From the sequence record AP026589.1: a DNA stretch of 42,609 bases; one strand, 5' to 3'. The position numbers were made by a program. Origin of the DNA: a plasmid. Positions 30,001 through 39,000 of this stretch are shown piece by piece (the first letter of the stretch is position 1; every line of letters begins with the position of its first letter).

Positions 30001-33000
30001 TTATCTCCAATAAACTGTTTTTTATATAAGTTTTACATTCATCATGATTCATACAAACTACCTTCTATAAATGAATACAAAAAAAGCAATCAAACGATTT
30101 CCGATTGATTGCTTAACAATTCTTAAATTCAGTAGCTTAGATACTTGAAAACTCTTTGATTTCCCTATATAATGATAGTACGGTTATATACCGTCTTCAA
30201 ACAAAGTTAATTAAATAACTTCTTACGAGGGAAGAGTTCATCTGACTAACTGATAAGCGTTGGTTTGCGCAATCTTATCGGGCTATGCATTTATAAAATG
30301 TCGTCAAACATTTTATAAATGTGTCATGGCTCTTTTTTCGTTTCTATTCAGTTCAATATTTCGTTACGTCTAGTATACCGCTTTAAAAAAAAATAAGCAA
30401 TTAAAAAGTGTAAAAATATTACGTTTACTCTTTTTTGCTTATTTCGCTATCTAGTTGTAATTCTAGCTGTTCCGAATCGTTAGGGATCAAATCAATGACC
30501 AGGGTTGAATTTGTAAGTTTTGCAATCCGTTCCAGTGTTTTTACAGTCGGGTTTGATTTTCCTAACTCAATTTTTAAGTAATTAGATTCTTTCATTCCAA
30601 TTTCTTCAGCAAACTGTTTACGTGTTTTATTTCCTCTCATTTGTCTTAAACGACTTCTGAATGCTAGCTCCAAATTTACCCCCTCCTTTACATTTTTGTG
30701 TAAAAATATTCAACACTCTCTTAACAATTATAGCTTTTAATTTCTTTATAAACAAGTGATTTGTGATTAATCACTTGTGATTTGTGATAAGTGATTTGTG
30801 ATTTTAACTTTTACATTATTTTACCAACTGTTTAGAATATTAAGTATGGTATACTCATTCATGGCAACTGCCCCGAAAGGGGGTTTGCGACCTGAAAAGT
30901 CGTCTACAAAATTGCTCACAAGGAGCTATTACTTCCACTTGTAATATTCCTACCGGTACATGCGTGAAAAGTAATTTTTAGGTGTGATAGCTACCGGGAC
31001 AATGTGGTAGAACAGTACTCACAACTGGTAATACTGCTAGGAAAAGTGCACATGGTTAACATAAGTGAACTACTGCTGGGCCGTGACGGGAACGGGTGAA
31101 AAGTGAGTGATACACCCCGGCCAAAATGGCACGAGACAAAGACTACAAGGCAACCTCCACCTTGTTAGAAAGTGGACAGAGTCTCCGGTCTACGGGTAGA
31201 ACCTAAATGCACATAATTATTTTGTAGTCTGAAACAGGGTAAGTCCTATGAACTCCCTAGGGGTAGGTATTTCGTGAGAAATATACAATGTTCAGAGGAT
31301 AAGGGATTTCGAAAAAGCGAAGGTTCAGCTGTAATCGCTGAAATAAGGATTCAAAATTTGTCCTATACCGAAAGGTAGCTGACTTCCGAAGAGCATTCTA
31401 TTACATGAACTAGCTGATATCGTCTAACAAGCAAAGTTCAACGACACGAAAGTGAGGACAACTTGCATGGGCAATTCTACCGTTAACAAAACTTGGAAAA
31501 CTATAAATTGGAAACAGGCAGAAGAGTACGTGAAACGATTGCAACTAAGAATTGTAAAGGCCACCCAACAAGGAAAATGGAGACTCGTTCGACGACTTCA
31601 ATATTTGATTACACATTCGTTTTATGCAAAAGCATTAGCCGTAAAAAAGGTAATATCGAATAAAGGGAAAAATACTGCTGGAATTGATGGGGTAATCTGG
31701 AAAACAGACTCTCAAAAGAAGCAAGCAATTGAACAACTAAATCCTAATCACTATTCACCAAAAGCTGTAAAAAGAATATATATTACCAAATTTGGCAAGA
31801 AAGAAAAGAGGCCTTTGGGTATTCCATGTATGCTCGACCGAGCCATGCAGGCCCTGTATTTACAAGCATTAGAGCCAGTATCAGAATGCATTTCGGACTC
31901 TAACTCCTATGGTTTTAGGAGATTTAAAAGTGCCAAAGATGCAGGAGAAAAAGTTTTTAAAGTTCTGTGCAGACAGTACTCAGCCCAATGGATACTAGAA
32001 GGAGACATAAAAGGATGTTTCGACAATATCAGCCACCAATGGCTGATTGATAACATTCCCTTGGAAAAGAACATGTTGAGAAAGTTTTTAAAAAGCGGAT
32101 ACATGGAAAAGAAAAAGCTATTCCCTACTACCATGGGAACAGCACAAGGTGGGATCATATCCCCCACGTTAGCAAATATTACGCTAGACGGCTTAGAGAA
32201 AAGGATAAAATCGAAATATTGGTCTAATAAAAAAGGAACGATTGGGGTCAGATACAACAAACACAAAGTAAATTTTGTGCGATACGCAGATGACTTCATT
32301 GTCACTGGAGACTCTCCAGAAATACTCTTAAAAATAAAAAACATGATTAATGAGTTTCTGAAAGAGCGTGGGCTCTCATTATCAGAGGAAAAAACACTCA
32401 TCACTCATATCAATCAAGGATTCGACTTCCTCGGGTGGAATTTCAGGAAATATAAGCGCTACAAGCTGATTGTTCAACCATCGAAAAAGTCTATAAAGAG
32501 AATGAAACAAACATTGAAACAAGTTGTTAAAGTACATTATTCTTCATCCCAAGACCTATTAATCCAGAATTTGAACCTCACATTGCGAGGTTGGGCTAAC
32601 TATCACTCGTCAATGTGCTCGAGTGAGGCATTCGGTGAAGTAAACAAACAATTATGGCTATATCTCCGACACTGGGCAAGGCGTAGACATCCGCATAAAT
32701 CATCCTTTTGGATGATGAAACGATATTGGTCAACGGGTTCTGTTGCAAAGTTTTAAATAAAGAATAAAATCCCTTACGGTATCTATGATTTAAGCTGGGA
32801 TTCCCAATAATACCTTGATTTCAGTACAGACCGAAAACCCGAAGAGAGTGCCTTCTTTTCGGGTTTTCTTATATAATCCTCGAATGGCTTCCATGCCTTT
32901 AATCGTGGTAGAGGCAGTGCGTAAACTTCGATAGAATTTATTGCGTCTCTTTACTGGACGATGGTCTTGTTCAATCAAATTATTCAGGTATTTAATGGTA

Positions 33001-36000: not shown

Positions 36001-39000
36001 AATAATGCCATTTTCCTTTAATTTTGATGTACGTTTCATCCATTTTCCATGAACCCACGTTTCCTTATGCTCTTTACAAATAAATTTGATAGAGTAGTTT
36101 GCCATATTCTTGCACCCAACGATAAATCGTCGTATGAGAAACGTTAATGCCACGATCATATAAGATTTCTTGAACTTCACGATAGCTAAGGTTATAACGA
36201 AGATAGTAGCCCACGGCTACAATAATCACATCCTGCTGAAATTGCTTTCCTTTAAAATGATTCATCGTCATTCCTCCTGCCATCTTTTTCTATTATTCTA
36301 CCTTATTTGATAGTAGATTTAAAACTTTGCAACAGAACCGTTCGTCACATCTTCGATCAATTTCTCTTACGATTTTCTCATCCACATTTCTTATTCTTAC
36401 TTCCATATTAATTCCTCCAATTTAAAAAGGATAGCGAAAAGGAGCCTATCCTTTTTGCTATCCTACTACCCTCCTTTTACTATCCTTCACTATCCTTTCA
36501 CTATCCTATTTTTAAATATTTTGTTCCCACATTTATTTTTGAGAAACGTAATAGGCACAGCCTATTGGAACACTTTTTTTAAAAAGTGTTCCCACGTTTC
36601 CTTATGCTCTTTACAAATAAAGGCTTTTAGAGACGTTCTGGAATTTTAGATTCCTTGAATTGTTCCCATTCATCAATCAATTGGCTATAAGTAGCCATTA
36701 ATTTTTTTCTTGCTCTTGTTGCTTTCGAATCAACAAAAAATCAGTTTGATTCGTTAATTCTAAATATTCTGTTCGGTATTCAATGTTCATCGTACCCGTT
36801 TTACTACATAGTAACTGATTATGACGTTCTTTCACTTTGAATAACTGCTCCTTCTTTAAGGTTTTTAACTCCATGCCAACTATAAGCACAATCCTGTATA
36901 GAGGAATCATTTTCAAACGATTCTCCATAATTATTTATCTTTCATTGGAAGTTCTAAATCACTACTGTTCCAAAAAATGTATGGTTTGTTTTGACGAATA
37001 TTACTTCCATCTAACCACAATTTTCCGATGCCATATCGTAGGCTTGCTTCGACTTCATAAAAATTGTAGATCTCTTTTCTTCGATCTATTGCTTTCATTT
37101 CCTGGCCATTTTTTAAAATAGATCTGATGCCCTTAACAGTAGATTCATGGATACTCGTGTGAACGATATCCGTATTGATCAATTCGTCATATCTTCCAAA
37201 ATCAACATTGTACTCATAACCAAGAAGTGTCGGAATCAGGTCAATTTCAATTTCTTTTTCAATTGAACGTTTAATAAGTTTCGTGGATACATACCCGACA
37301 AAAAAGAGAATAATACCCACTTCAAACAAATACATGTGTCCATTTACAAAGTGAATAAACGTCAATAAAAAATCCTTCACTCCTTTTGTTGTTCTTCCAG
37401 ATTGTTCAATTTGTTTTATTAAAGTCGCTAGAATTGCATTTACAACAATTAAATCGAATAGGCTTTTGAAAAGTTTTCCTGCTGTTAATTTTTGCCTGGT
37501 AAATTGCATGACTAATTGAGTAAAAATAGACAATAGCATGACAAAAATCAACGTCATTAGCACTGTAAAAATGTCTGATGCTGCAATCCTATTGGGATCA
37601 TTTATCAAGTAATAAGCCGTTCCAAATACTCCAATCGAGTAAACGGTTAAATCAAGAATAAGTCGTGCCCCGTAACTACAAAGTTTTCCTAATGGCCATA
37701 ATTGCAATACCCAAAATTTCTTTCGTTTGCTATTTCTTTTCAGAGGAAGCCAGGTGTGTTCAATCCAGTCGTCCGATTTCATTTCGATTTCTTCCCTAAA
37801 TTCTTTCCTTTAACGTTTTCCTTTGCTACTTTAGCAGCGATAGGTTGCTCAATGAACCAATTTTTTAAGTACGCCGATTGTAAAATTAAGCTAGACAACT
37901 AAAAAAGTCATTTGTGCTACACTCAAAATAGTTCCGTCCAAAGAATTATAAGGAGTGAGTACAAATGACCTATACCCATCTTACAACGGATGAACTTGTA
38001 ATGATAGAGTCTTATTTCAAAATAAATCAATCTGTTGCGAAAACTGCGCATTTCTTGAATCGTTCAAGACAAACGATCCATAAAGTATACCTGTTCTTCA
38101 AGCAAGGAAAATCAGCCTTAGAGTACTATCAACAGTATAAGAAAAACAAATCAAACTGTGGTAGACGCCCGCTTGTTTTACCTGAGGAACAATCAGAATA
38201 TATTCAAAGAAAGGTTGTTCAAGGATGGACACCCGATGTGATTGTTGGTCGTGCAGCGTTTCCTATTCGTTGTTCTGCTCGTACCATTTATCGTATGTTC
38301 AAAAAGGGGCTATTTAATCCTTCTGACTTACCGATGAAAGGCAAGCGTAAACCAAATGGACATCAAGAAAGACGTGGAAAACAAGCTTTCCGTCGCTCTA
38401 TTCATGAACGTGAAAAAGATTATAGCCAATTCTCAAATGAGTTTGGTCACCTTGAAGGTGACACTATCGTAGGTTTGAAACATAAAAGTGCTGTAATTAC
38501 CTTAGTTGAGCGATTATCAAAAGTTATCATCACATTGAAACCGTGTGGTAGACAAGCGATTGATATTGAAAACAAATTAAATCATTGGTTTGAATCTGTA
38601 CCGAAAAATCTATTCAAATCCATCACTTTTGATTGTGGAAAGGAATTTTCAAATTGGAAACAGATCAGTAATGCCAATGATATTGCCATTTATTTCGCTG
38701 ATCCAGGAACGCCGTCTCAAAGAGGCCTAAACGAGAATTCTAACGGATTGTTACGTAGAGATGGTTTATTGAAATCTATGGATTTCAATTCAGTAGATGA
38801 ATCTTTTATTCAATCTGTCGCATCGAAACGAAATAATATTCCTAGAAAATCACTGAATTATCGAACACCTTTGGAAGTATTTTTGAGTTACGTAAGTATT
38901 GATGATTTGTCTAACTTAATTTGACAATTAAGAGTAAATAAAAACTACTACTGGATATACTTCTTCCTTTTTCTTAACTCGTTAGCTATTTTATACTCAA

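What the first reader, a model, noticed from the sequence alone, without database searches (positions are those of the whole stretch)
32736..36339. IS1216 cointegrate capture of a roughly 2-kb Rep_trans rolling-circle plasmid, with intact 8-bp target duplication
A pT181-family (Rep_trans) initiator gene is split so that its C-terminal part (33553..34307) lies upstream of its N-terminal part (35269..35530). Both parts are in the same orientation. Each abuts a directly repeated IS1216 copy. The 8-mer tttgaatg occurs exactly at both junctions (33545-33552 and 35523-35530). Removing one 8-mer and circularising restores one continuous Rep reading frame (..EQLMRLN-ENQGYLKS..). This is the predicted product of IS6-family replicative transposition into a small circular target. 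By this reading the whole 1978-bp cryptic RCR plasmid, including its palindromic origin region, was captured into the Inc18 plasmid as a cointegrate. All other IS1216 copies in the window lack target duplications, which makes this pair stand out.
Basis: seen in the sequence. Interest (0 to 1): 0.65.

Follow-up and report, generated by a model that had tools for sequence, protein, structure and literature searches.

The report
IS1216-captured small rolling-circle plasmid
A complete 2-kb cryptic Enterococcus faecium plasmid sits inside a larger vancomycin-resistance plasmid between two IS1216 copies; the reading is correct, but this kind of plasmid fusion is well documented and ordinary.

Summary
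Two direct 809-bp IS1216 copies (32736-33544, 35531-36339) bracket a 1978-bp segment bounded by the 8-mer TTTGAATG. Circularising it restores a 338-aa Rep that is 100% identical to the Rep of a free 1979-bp E. faecium plasmid. That free plasmid carries one TTTGAATG at this site. The Rep is a pT181-family (Rep_trans) initiator: 33% identity to RepC, with the catalytic Tyr conserved. So the junctions were made by IS1216 copy-in (replicative) cointegration.

Two refinements:
- **Not sister copies.** The right IS carries allele 751C, typical of the IS resident at this backbone position in 7 of 8 related plasmids. The left IS carries the common 751T. A second IS1216-to-IS1216 step (targeted conservative or homologous recombination) probably placed the unit here.
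- **Origin location.** By homology with pT181, the double-strand origin lies inside the rep 5' coding fragment (35359-35387), not in the non-coding palindromes.

The same plasmid family was captured independently by IS1216 at six or more other sites in public plasmids, and an equivalent event (pCOLA) is published. This exact junction is new. Interest is low. One oddity remains unexplained: a 31-bp same-length patch that disrupts the right IS transposase.

The parts
32736..33544 (-). IS1216 copy 5 (left). It is 809 bp with an intact 228-aa transposase (33476 to 32790) and allele 751T at 33486. Its outer end truncates a group II intron reverse transcriptase ORF.
   Evidence: Pfam DDE_Tnp_IS240, E = 8.5e-42. 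100% identical to annotated IS1216 copies in other plasmids.
33545..33552 (.). Left copy of the 8-bp target site duplication TTTGAATG.
   Evidence: Single copy at the same site in the free plasmid L001.
33553..34307 (+). C-terminal part of rep (codons 88-338 plus stop). It contains Tyr208, which aligns with the catalytic Tyr191 of pT181 RepC.
34338..34548 (+). Array of six consecutive hairpins downstream of rep, including a terminator-like hairpin with a T-run at 34411-34455 and GTGACA palindromes. Candidates for a transcription terminator and/or single-strand origin. Function not established.
   Evidence: z-scores -6.8 and -9.6. About 98% conserved between plasmid groups whose rep genes are only about 88% identical.
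34822..34952 (+). Long imperfect palindrome that folds better on the rep-sense strand. Candidate single-strand origin.
   Evidence: repeat I1.: -25.9 kcal/mol on the + strand against -18.7 on the - strand.
35070..35181 (-). Candidate countertranscript (antisense RNA) unit for rep control. Promoter-like site at 35181-35153, two hairpins (35143-35115 and 35112-35082), then a T-run.
   Evidence: 10 of 12 promoter match. (z = -5.5). Compensatory changes keep the 35082-35112 hairpin in related plasmids. No Rfam family matched, so this is an inference.
35269..35530 (+). N-terminal part of rep (codons 1-87 plus one base). In the window it reads on into the IS for 10 more codons.
35359..35387 (+). Predicted double-strand origin hairpin, like IR-II of pT181 (arms CTTAACCG/CGGTTAAG). 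The nick is predicted between 35373 and 35374 (TCT|AAC). It is intact, about 135 bp upstream of the IS junction.
   Evidence: Alignment to the pT181 origin AACCGGCTACTCT|AATAGCCGGTT at the homologous rep codons. Hairpin z = -4.1. The stretch next to it diverges between plasmid groups, as IR-III does. The rule that the origin lies inside rep in the pT181 family is from PMC5703833.
35523..35530 (.). Right copy of the 8-bp target site duplication TTTGAATG.
35531..36339 (-). IS1216 copy 6 (right), 809 bp. It carries allele 751C at 36281, the allele of the IS resident at this backbone position in relatives. Its transposase is broken by the patch at 36054-36084.
36054..36084 (.). 31-bp block inside IS copy 6, identical to backbone sequence 36591-36621. 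It replaces an equal length of IS sequence and introduces two stop codons.
   Evidence: No contiguous match in PLSDB.

Best explanation
The segment 33553-35530 is a complete, circularly permuted copy of a 1978-bp cryptic rolling-circle plasmid of E. faecium.

What the plasmid is:
- It has a pT181-family Rep_trans initiator.
- It is probably the rep14-type small plasmid of the enterococcal literature. That typing was not tested here.

How it was captured:
- An IS1216 element attacked the free circle at TTTGAATG, inside rep codons 85-88, by the copy-in (replicative) route of the IS26 family.
- This fused donor and target, duplicated the IS and duplicated the 8-bp target. The result is IS - TSD - plasmid - TSD - IS.
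- The event split Rep after residue 87. The catalytic Tyr208 sits on a fragment that has lost its promoter, leader and first 87 residues, so the captured replicon is almost certainly dead in cis. That last step is an inference.
- The predicted double-strand origin (35359-35387) and the structured non-coding region remain intact.

How it probably reached this position:
- The right IS copy carries the allele of the IS that sits at this backbone position in related plasmids. The left copy carries the common allele.
- So the unit most likely arrived through a second event between two IS1216 copies. That event was either targeted conservative cointegration or homologous recombination, involving a translocatable unit or a whole cointegrate.
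- A single copy-in by the backbone's own IS is less likely.

Sub-confidences: copy-in origin of the junctions, about 0.93; a second IS-to-IS step, about 0.6.
For: Shown directly:
- IS copies, 8-mers and the restored ORF are as described.
- Free 1979-1981-bp plasmids cover 100% of the segment at about 97% identity.
- The free plasmid L001 has one TTTGAATG in the identical context and a 338/338 identical Rep.
- Rep aligns across the junction to PDB 4CWE/4CWC (E = 4e-24) and to pT181 RepC (33% identity, E = 1e-28, with VRMY208NKK against IRIY191NKK).
- Pfam Rep_trans scores above its cut-off.
- The origin hairpin aligns to IR-II of pT181.

Recurrence of the mechanism:
- Six other IS1216-flanked copies of this plasmid family carry different perfect 8-bp duplications: AGGTACAC, TGCGGATG, AATTGGTC, GCTGAATG, ATCAGGGA and AAAAAAGG.

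Experimental basis:
- IS1216 forms copy-in cointegrates with 8-bp duplications.
- When both molecules carry the IS, it uses the targeted conservative route about 150-fold more often (PMC6952201).

Evidence for a second step:
- Allele 751C is present in the IS next to the flank GTTCGTCACATC in 7 of 8 related plasmids, and in 0 of 21 IS1216 copies elsewhere.
- Five genuine sister pairs (L004, L007, L008, L010, L011) are identical to each other, including private SNPs. The window pair is T on the left and C on the right.
- Among relatives, the right flank of this resident IS is constant while its left flank takes four other forms. That is the pattern expected of a docking site.
Against: - The two-step inference rests on a single informative nucleotide. 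A point mutation, or gene conversion from one of the four other 751T copies on the same plasmid, could give the same pattern after a one-step copy-in.
- One relative (L019) has 751T at the resident position.
- Neither outer junction nor the inner junction is found in any other public record, so no intermediate is documented.
- Loss of Rep function, the position of the nick site, and the sso and countertranscript assignments are inferences from homology and folding. They are not demonstrated.
Confidence: 0.85

Rival explanations
1. Single-step capture. The IS1216 already resident on this Inc18-type backbone performed copy-in directly into the free small plasmid. The T/C difference and the 31-bp patch arose afterwards by mutation or by gene conversion from other IS1216 copies on the plasmid.
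For: The structure and the target duplication are exactly what one copy-in event produces (PMC6952201). Four other 751T copies on the same molecule could act as conversion donors. The right copy has clearly been altered after formation, as the patch shows.
Against: Sister IS pairs in five comparable captures are identical, including their private SNPs. The allele that differs is the one that marks the resident IS in 7 of 8 relatives. When both partners carry IS1216, the conservative route is about 150-fold more frequent than copy-in. The left outer flank (a truncated group II intron) is not the left flank of the resident IS in any relative examined.
Confidence: 0.3
2. Assembly artefact. The cell holds a separate circle (small plasmid plus one IS1216, 2795 bp, or a translocatable unit), and the assembler threaded it into the large plasmid through the repeated IS.
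For: A path IS-plasmid-IS through a repeat node is a valid mis-join in short-read graphs. The window contains six IS1216 copies. The odd 31-bp patch in the right IS has no counterpart in PLSDB and could reflect a consensus or polishing problem.
Against: The two IS copies were resolved as distinct sequences, by a SNP and the patch, which collapsed repeats would not give. A rep-disrupted circle could not maintain itself. At least six other complete plasmid records from different laboratories show the same type of IS1216-flanked integration of this plasmid family.
Confidence: 0.04
3. Insertion as a unit. The IS-plasmid-IS block moved into this site as a compound transposon.
For: The block has the outward form of a compound or pseudo-compound transposon, with direct IS copies flanking a passenger.
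Against: The outer flanks GGTCAACG and GTTCGTCA do not match, so there is no outer duplication. IS26-family elements are reported not to move this way (PMC6952201 and PMC12711152). The right outer flank is the constant flank of a pre-existing resident IS in relatives.
Confidence: 0.02

Closest known systems
pCOLA integrated in the pRUM-like plasmid pHHEf2 (E. faecium), PMC12711152
   Same: A small plasmid captured by IS1216 copy-in. Direct IS1216 copies at both ends. The 8-bp duplication (AACGGAAT) lies inside the small plasmid's rep gene, which is split. The free circular counterpart is known.
   Different: The small plasmid is different (3.2 kb against 1978 bp). The backbone is different (pRUM-like RepA_N against a PriCT_1 / Inc18-type backbone here). 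In the window the two IS copies are not identical.
IS257/IS431-flanked co-integrated small RCR plasmids (pUB110, pT181 types) in staphylococcal multiresistance plasmids and SCCmec
   Same: Non-resolved replicative transposition by a related IS26-family element. Direct IS copies at each junction and an 8-bp duplication. The replication regions of captured RCR plasmids are often inactivated (PMC5703833; PMC6952201).
   Different: The IS is IS1216, whose transposase is 62% identical to that of IS257. The host is Enterococcus. The passenger carries no resistance gene.
pT181 (S. aureus), prototype of the Rep_trans RCR family
   Same: Rep is 33% identical over 289 aa and the catalytic Tyr is conserved. 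An IR-II-like origin hairpin with core TCTAA sits at the homologous codons inside the rep 5' coding region. There is a candidate antisense-RNA control region upstream of rep.
   Different: It is much smaller (1978 bp against 4439 bp), with no tet(K) or mob. There is no detectable similarity to the pT181 region 3850-4010 compared here. No Rfam ctRNA family matched. The N-terminus is about 40 residues longer.
rep14a/rep14b small Rep_trans plasmids of E. faecium (pEFNP1 / pRI1 types)
   Same: The literature describes 2-4-kb Rep_trans plasmids, with a minimum reported size of 1,928 bp, common in clinical E. faecium. It also describes mosaic vanA plasmids combining Inc18 and Rep_trans replicases (PMC13141415). 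PLSDB holds 1928-1981-bp circles matching the segment.
   Different: Assignment to rep14a or rep14b was not tested, because no PlasmidFinder database was available. MOB-suite calls the relatives rep_cluster_1968 and rep_cluster_935.

Membership tests
IS26/IS6-family copy-in cointegrate (IS1216) | Captured molecule flanked by two copies of the IS in direct orientation | tested here: met
   Copies at 32736-33544 and 35531-36339, same orientation, 809 bp each.
IS26/IS6-family copy-in cointegrate (IS1216) | 8-bp duplication of the target site at the two inner junctions | tested here: met
   TTTGAATG at 33545-33552 and 35523-35530. The free plasmid has one copy. Chance is about 3e-5.
IS26/IS6-family copy-in cointegrate (IS1216) | The segment between the IS copies is a complete circular permutation of a free replicon | tested here: met
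   100% coverage by 1979-1981-bp circular plasmids. Collinear alignment.
IS26/IS6-family copy-in cointegrate (IS1216) | IS with an IS6-type DDE transposase and perfect terminal inverted repeats | tested here: met
   DDE_Tnp_IS240, E = 8.5e-42, for copy 5. 18-bp perfect inverted repeats. The transposase of copy 6 is interrupted by two stops.
IS26/IS6-family copy-in cointegrate (IS1216) | The two IS copies are sister copies, identical at formation | tested here: not met
   They differ at position 751 (T/C) and by a 28-31-bp patch. Five control pairs elsewhere are identical. This argues for an additional IS-to-IS step or later change. It does not argue against copy-in as the origin of the junctions.
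pT181-family (Rep_trans) rolling-circle plasmid | Initiator with a Rep_trans domain homologous to RepC/RepD | tested here: met
   Pfam 36.1 bits against a cut-off of 29.6. PDB 4CWE E = 4.3e-24 over residues 54-329. RepC 33% identity, E = 1e-28.
pT181-family (Rep_trans) rolling-circle plasmid | Catalytic tyrosine equivalent to RepC Tyr191 | tested here: met
   Tyr208 in VRMYNKK aligns with IRIY191NKK. The role of the residue is from PMC5703833.
pT181-family (Rep_trans) rolling-circle plasmid | Double-strand origin inside the rep coding region, with a conserved IR-II hairpin and nick site | tested here: met
   35359-35387 aligns with the IR-II of pT181 at homologous codons and shares AACCG...TCTAA.AG.CGGTT. 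It forms a hairpin with z = -4.1. Nicking itself was not tested.
pT181-family (Rep_trans) rolling-circle plasmid | Single-strand origin active in one orientation | tested here: inconclusive
   Strongly structured non-coding DNA and a strand-asymmetric long palindrome. No similarity to the pT181 region compared, and no curated model was available.
pT181-family (Rep_trans) rolling-circle plasmid | Antisense-RNA (countertranscript) control of rep | tested here: inconclusive
   A minus-strand promoter-like site followed by two hairpins and a T-run, with compensatory changes. No Rfam ctRNA hit.
pT181-family (Rep_trans) rolling-circle plasmid | Replication through single-stranded intermediates | not testable with these tools
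   Needs Southern detection of ssDNA or in vitro nicking assays.
Inc18-type host plasmid | Theta replicon with a roughly 500-aa PriCT_1 Rep, plus partition and toxin-antitoxin modules typical of Inc18 | tested here: met
   Two PriCT_1 Reps of 496 and 497 aa. A PrgP/ParA protein and a zeta/PezT-like toxin. A relative with the same rep is typed 'Inc18, rep_cluster_185' by MOB-suite.

The most novel reading that the evidence does not exclude
Rep is split, but the predicted double-strand origin and the structured lagging-strand region are intact. Free plasmids with an identical Rep are common in E. faecium. A co-resident free copy could therefore supply Rep in trans and start rolling-circle replication from inside the 42.6-kb theta plasmid. 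That would produce single-stranded or multimeric DNA and could raise recombination, instability or transfer of the vanA plasmid. On this reading, the recurrent IS1216 capture of this one plasmid family (seven or more independent sites) would be more than passive accretion.
Probability: 0.12. Interest if true: 0.5.

Novelty: new member of a known kind. Interest (0 to 1): 0.17.

Why it matters
This is a clean, fully documented example of how IS1216 builds mosaic vancomycin-resistance plasmids in E. faecium by fusing replicons. The allele pattern gives a small practical lesson. A perfect target duplication shows how the junctions were made. It does not show which molecule made them, or in how many steps the unit reached its present place. 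Beyond that, the event is one more instance of a process already shown experimentally and catalogued in comparative studies. It does not open a new question.

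Tried and rejected
- **pT181 nick consensus search.** A search for the 12-mer CTACTCTAATAG with up to 3 mismatches gave 36 matches against 37.2 expected, so it was uninformative. The real homologue has 5 mismatches to that 12-mer. It was found only by aligning homologous rep codons.
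- **Hairpin at 35115-35143.** It was first considered as the origin because its loop resembles pT181's. It was reinterpreted as the first stem-loop of a minus-strand countertranscript, because a 10/12 promoter lies just upstream on that strand and a terminator follows.
- **Catalytic Tyr.** It was first assigned to Y196 (ETAYWG) from the PDB alignment. It was corrected to Y208 by numbering against pT181 RepC.
- **Rfam.** No ctRNA or plasmid RNA family matched in 30500-37000. Only the group II intron matched.
- **pT181 region 3850-4010 against the window's post-rep region.** No meaningful similarity.
- **Searches for the exact junction all returned nothing:**
  - PLSDB, left inner junction and left outer junction
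  - exact-protein look-ups of the two Rep fragments
  - a 35-mer scan of metagenome and genome contigs
- **Compound-transposon insertion.** Rejected because the outer flanks do not match.
- **The 70-aa ORF at 34498-34710.** No family hit, and it overlaps the hairpin array. It is treated as non-coding.

Full report
**Observation**

- The window holds six 809-bp IS1216 copies with 18-bp perfect terminal repeats, starting at 8018, 14312, 18646, 26470, 32736 and 35531. The copy at 26470 is inverted and the other five are direct.
- The copies at 32736-33544 and 35531-36339 bracket 1986 bp that begin and end with TTTGAATG (33545-33552 and 35523-35530).
- No other pair of IS flanks, in either orientation, matches at more than 6 of 8 positions. 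An 8/8 match has a chance probability of about 3e-5 at this base composition.
- Taking 33553-35530 (1978 bp) as a circle and starting at the ATG at 35269 gives one 338-aa ORF that reads through the join as ...EQLMRLNENQGYLKS....

**What the captured segment is**

- A megablast of the 1978 bp against PLSDB finds 442 records, almost all Enterococcus. They include many free circular E. faecium plasmids of 1979-1981 bp that cover 100% of the query at about 97% identity. There is also a 1928-bp variant and a group at about 89% identity.
- In the free plasmid p11VB13828 (1979 bp) the sequence GAGCAATTAATGCGTTTGAATGAAAATCAAGGG contains a single TTTGAATG, exactly at the reconstructed join. Its annotated Rep (WP_002326787.1) is 338/338 identical to the restored ORF.
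- The protein passes the Pfam Rep_trans threshold (36.1 against 29.6 bits).
- It aligns over residues 54-329, across the break at residue 87/88, to the staphylococcal RepDE structures 4CWE/4CWC (E = 4e-24).
- It is 33% identical to pT181 RepC over 289 residues (E = 1e-28). Tyr208 (VRMYNKK) lies opposite RepC Tyr191 (IRIYNKK). The catalytic role of that residue is taken from PMC5703833.

**Origin and control elements**

- In the pT181 family the double-strand origin lies inside the rep coding region (PMC5703833).
- Aligning homologous codons shows the same arrangement here. The pT181 sequence AACCGGCTACTCT|AATAGCCGGTT (T G Y S N S R L) corresponds to AACCGTATATCT|AACAGGCGGTT (N R I S N R R L) at 35363-35385.
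- This sits within a hairpin whose arms are CTTAACCG and CGGTTAAG (35359-35387, z = -4.1). By this alignment the nick falls between 35373 and 35374.
- The hairpin is conserved in all plasmid variants compared. The stretch just downstream differs between the 97% and 89% groups, and so does the Rep C-terminal region. That is the pattern expected for an IR-III-like specificity site.
- The origin is therefore in the N-terminal rep fragment, about 135 bp from the IS junction, and it is intact.
- The non-coding half of the plasmid is about 98% conserved even between groups whose rep genes are only about 88% identical. It is very structured:
  - six consecutive hairpins at 34338-34548 (z = -9.6 and -6.8);
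  - a long palindrome at 34822-34952 that folds better on the rep-sense strand (-25.9 against -18.7 kcal/mol).
- These are candidates for a terminator and a single-strand origin. I could not assign them. They show no similarity to the pT181 region compared.
- Upstream of rep, the minus strand has a 10/12 promoter-like site (35181-35153), then two hairpins and a T-run. The 35082-35112 hairpin keeps its pairing through compensatory differences among plasmids. This fits a countertranscript of the pT181 type, but no Rfam family matched.

**Mechanism of the junctions**

- IS1216 is an IS26-family element. Experiments show it forms cointegrates by copy-in, with duplication of the IS and of an 8-bp target. 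They also show a targeted conservative route between two IS copies, which is about 150-fold more frequent when both molecules carry the IS (PMC6952201).
- The arrangement IS - TSD - complete plasmid - TSD - IS is the copy-in product.
- The same plasmid family has been captured in the same way elsewhere. I found IS1216-flanked copies with different perfect 8-bp duplications in six other records:

| Record | Duplication |
|---|---|
| pK195-6b-B | AGGTACAC |
| E745 pl2 | TGCGGATG |
| p2001564_3 | AATTGGTC |
| pRR-1-10_04 (rep left intact) | GCTGAATG |
| E6975 plasmid 5 | AAAAAAGG |
| S. aureus VMRSA plasmid | ATCAGGGA |

- Further copies show secondary deletions.
- A published case, pCOLA in pHHEf2, is equivalent down to the duplication lying inside the split rep gene (PMC12711152).
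- IS257-flanked RCR plasmids in staphylococci are the classical parallel (PMC5703833).

**How the unit reached this position**

- The two flanking IS copies are not identical. Apart from the patch described below, they differ at IS position 751: T at 33486 and C at 36281.
- I compared 29 IS1216 copies from 15 related loci:
  - The IS next to the backbone flank GTTCGTCACATC, which is the right outer flank in the window, carries 751C in 7 of 8 relatives.
  - None of the 21 copies at other positions carries it.
  - In five captures with perfect duplications (L004, L007, L008, L010, L011) the two flanking copies are identical to each other, including private SNPs. This is what sister copies should look like.
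  - Among relatives the right flank of this resident IS is constant. Its left flank takes four other forms, one being the end of a different integrated RCR plasmid carrying tet(L), a MobV relaxase and a Rep.
- This is the signature of a resident IS acting as a docking site.
- The simplest history has two steps:
  1. A 751T IS1216 made the copy-in junctions with the small plasmid.
  2. That IS, or the IS-plus-plasmid unit, then joined the resident 751C IS. The join was either the targeted conservative route at the left IS ends or a homologous crossover anywhere in positions 1-750. Either leaves T on the left and C on the right.
- The argument rests on one nucleotide. Gene conversion from other 751T copies on the same plasmid, or a mutation, cannot be excluded, and one relative (L019) has T at the resident site.

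**Context**

- The window is a mosaic E. faecium vanA plasmid. Its first 25 kb match Tn1546-bearing plasmids at 99% or more.
- It carries erm(B), a zeta-type toxin, a truncated topoisomerase and a PrgP/ParA protein.
- It also has two PriCT_1 Rep genes of 496 and 497 aa. A relative with the same Rep is typed Inc18 by MOB-suite. 'Inc18' is therefore a fair label.
- The left IS copy truncates a group II intron. Domains 1-4 lie at 30927-31080 (Rfam, 60 bits). The RT/maturase ORF at 31452-32756 reads into the IS.
- The intron is intact, and 100% identical over the compared stretch, in three E. faecalis plasmids.
- Neither this outer junction nor the inner junction occurs in PLSDB. Exact look-ups in the protein index, metagenome contigs and representative genomes also found nothing. 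This particular junction therefore appears to be new.

**An unexplained detail**

- Inside the right IS, 31 bp at 36054-36084 (CCCACGTTTCCTTATGCTCTTTACAAATAAA) are identical to backbone sequence at 36591-36621, 537 bp downstream.
- They replace exactly the same length of IS sequence. This creates two stop codons in the transposase while leaving the downstream frame unchanged.
- No PLSDB record has this block inside IS1216. Relatives have the normal IS and the normal downstream copy.
- A same-length replacement without flanking homology is unusual. I cannot tell whether it is a templated repair event or a consensus error.
- It means that only the left copy can supply transposase.

**Verdict**

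- The event is a fresh instance of a well-characterised process, involving a plasmid family that IS1216 has captured many times.
- Novelty is limited to the specific junction, the allele evidence for a two-step route, and the placement of the origin inside rep.
- Interest is low (0.17).

Noticed in passing
window 36054-36084 and 36591-36621: An exact 31-bp block of backbone sequence replaces an equal length of IS1216 copy 6. It puts two stop codons in the transposase. It is absent from IS1216 in all PLSDB records. Either a templated repair event or a sequence error. Unexplained.
   Followed up: partly
window 30927-32735: Group II intron (Rfam D1-D4, 60 bits; RT/maturase ORF 31452-32756) cut off by the left IS1216 with no target duplication. 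The same intron is intact in three E. faecalis plasmids.
   Followed up: partly
window 36340 onward; loci L002, L005, L006, L015-L019: The IS1216 next to flank GTTCGTCACATC is a recurrent docking site. Its right flank is constant and its left flank varies between plasmids. Variants include a remnant of another RCR plasmid with tet(L), a MobV relaxase and a Rep, and a Mob plasmid. In L018 the Mob plasmid shows a 7/8 duplication and mixed 751T/C IS alleles, a parallel to the window.
   Followed up: partly
L003 (S. aureus VMRSA-WC102 plasmid, NZ_CP092545.1) 2765-5796: The same plasmid family (89% group) is integrated in a vancomycin-resistant S. aureus plasmid. Its duplication ATCAGGGA lies only 3 bp from the window's target site. 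It is flanked by IS1216 ends in inverted orientation, one of them a 236-bp IS fragment abutting a full copy.
   Followed up: partly
window 28222-29712 and 39379-40872: Two separate PriCT_1 (Inc18-type) replication genes of 496 and 497 aa on one molecule, separated by IS1216-bounded segments. This suggests the plasmid is itself a fusion of two theta replicons.
   Followed up: no
window 26470-27278: This IS1216 copy is inverted relative to the other five. It shares SNPs 148G/160A with the copy at 18646.
   Followed up: no
window 21283-21361, 23097-23175, 24078-24132, 30769-30788: Clusters of AATCACA heptad repeats in both orientations, and duplicated 70-170-bp blocks around 21.0-24.3 kb. From memory, they resemble the binding sites of the Inc18 omega regulator. 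Not tested.
   Followed up: no
window 34925-34975 and 35082-35112: The integrated copy differs from free plasmids in two short patches, while the rest of the non-coding region is nearly identical. The second patch is a hairpin whose pairing is kept by compensatory changes.
   Followed up: partly
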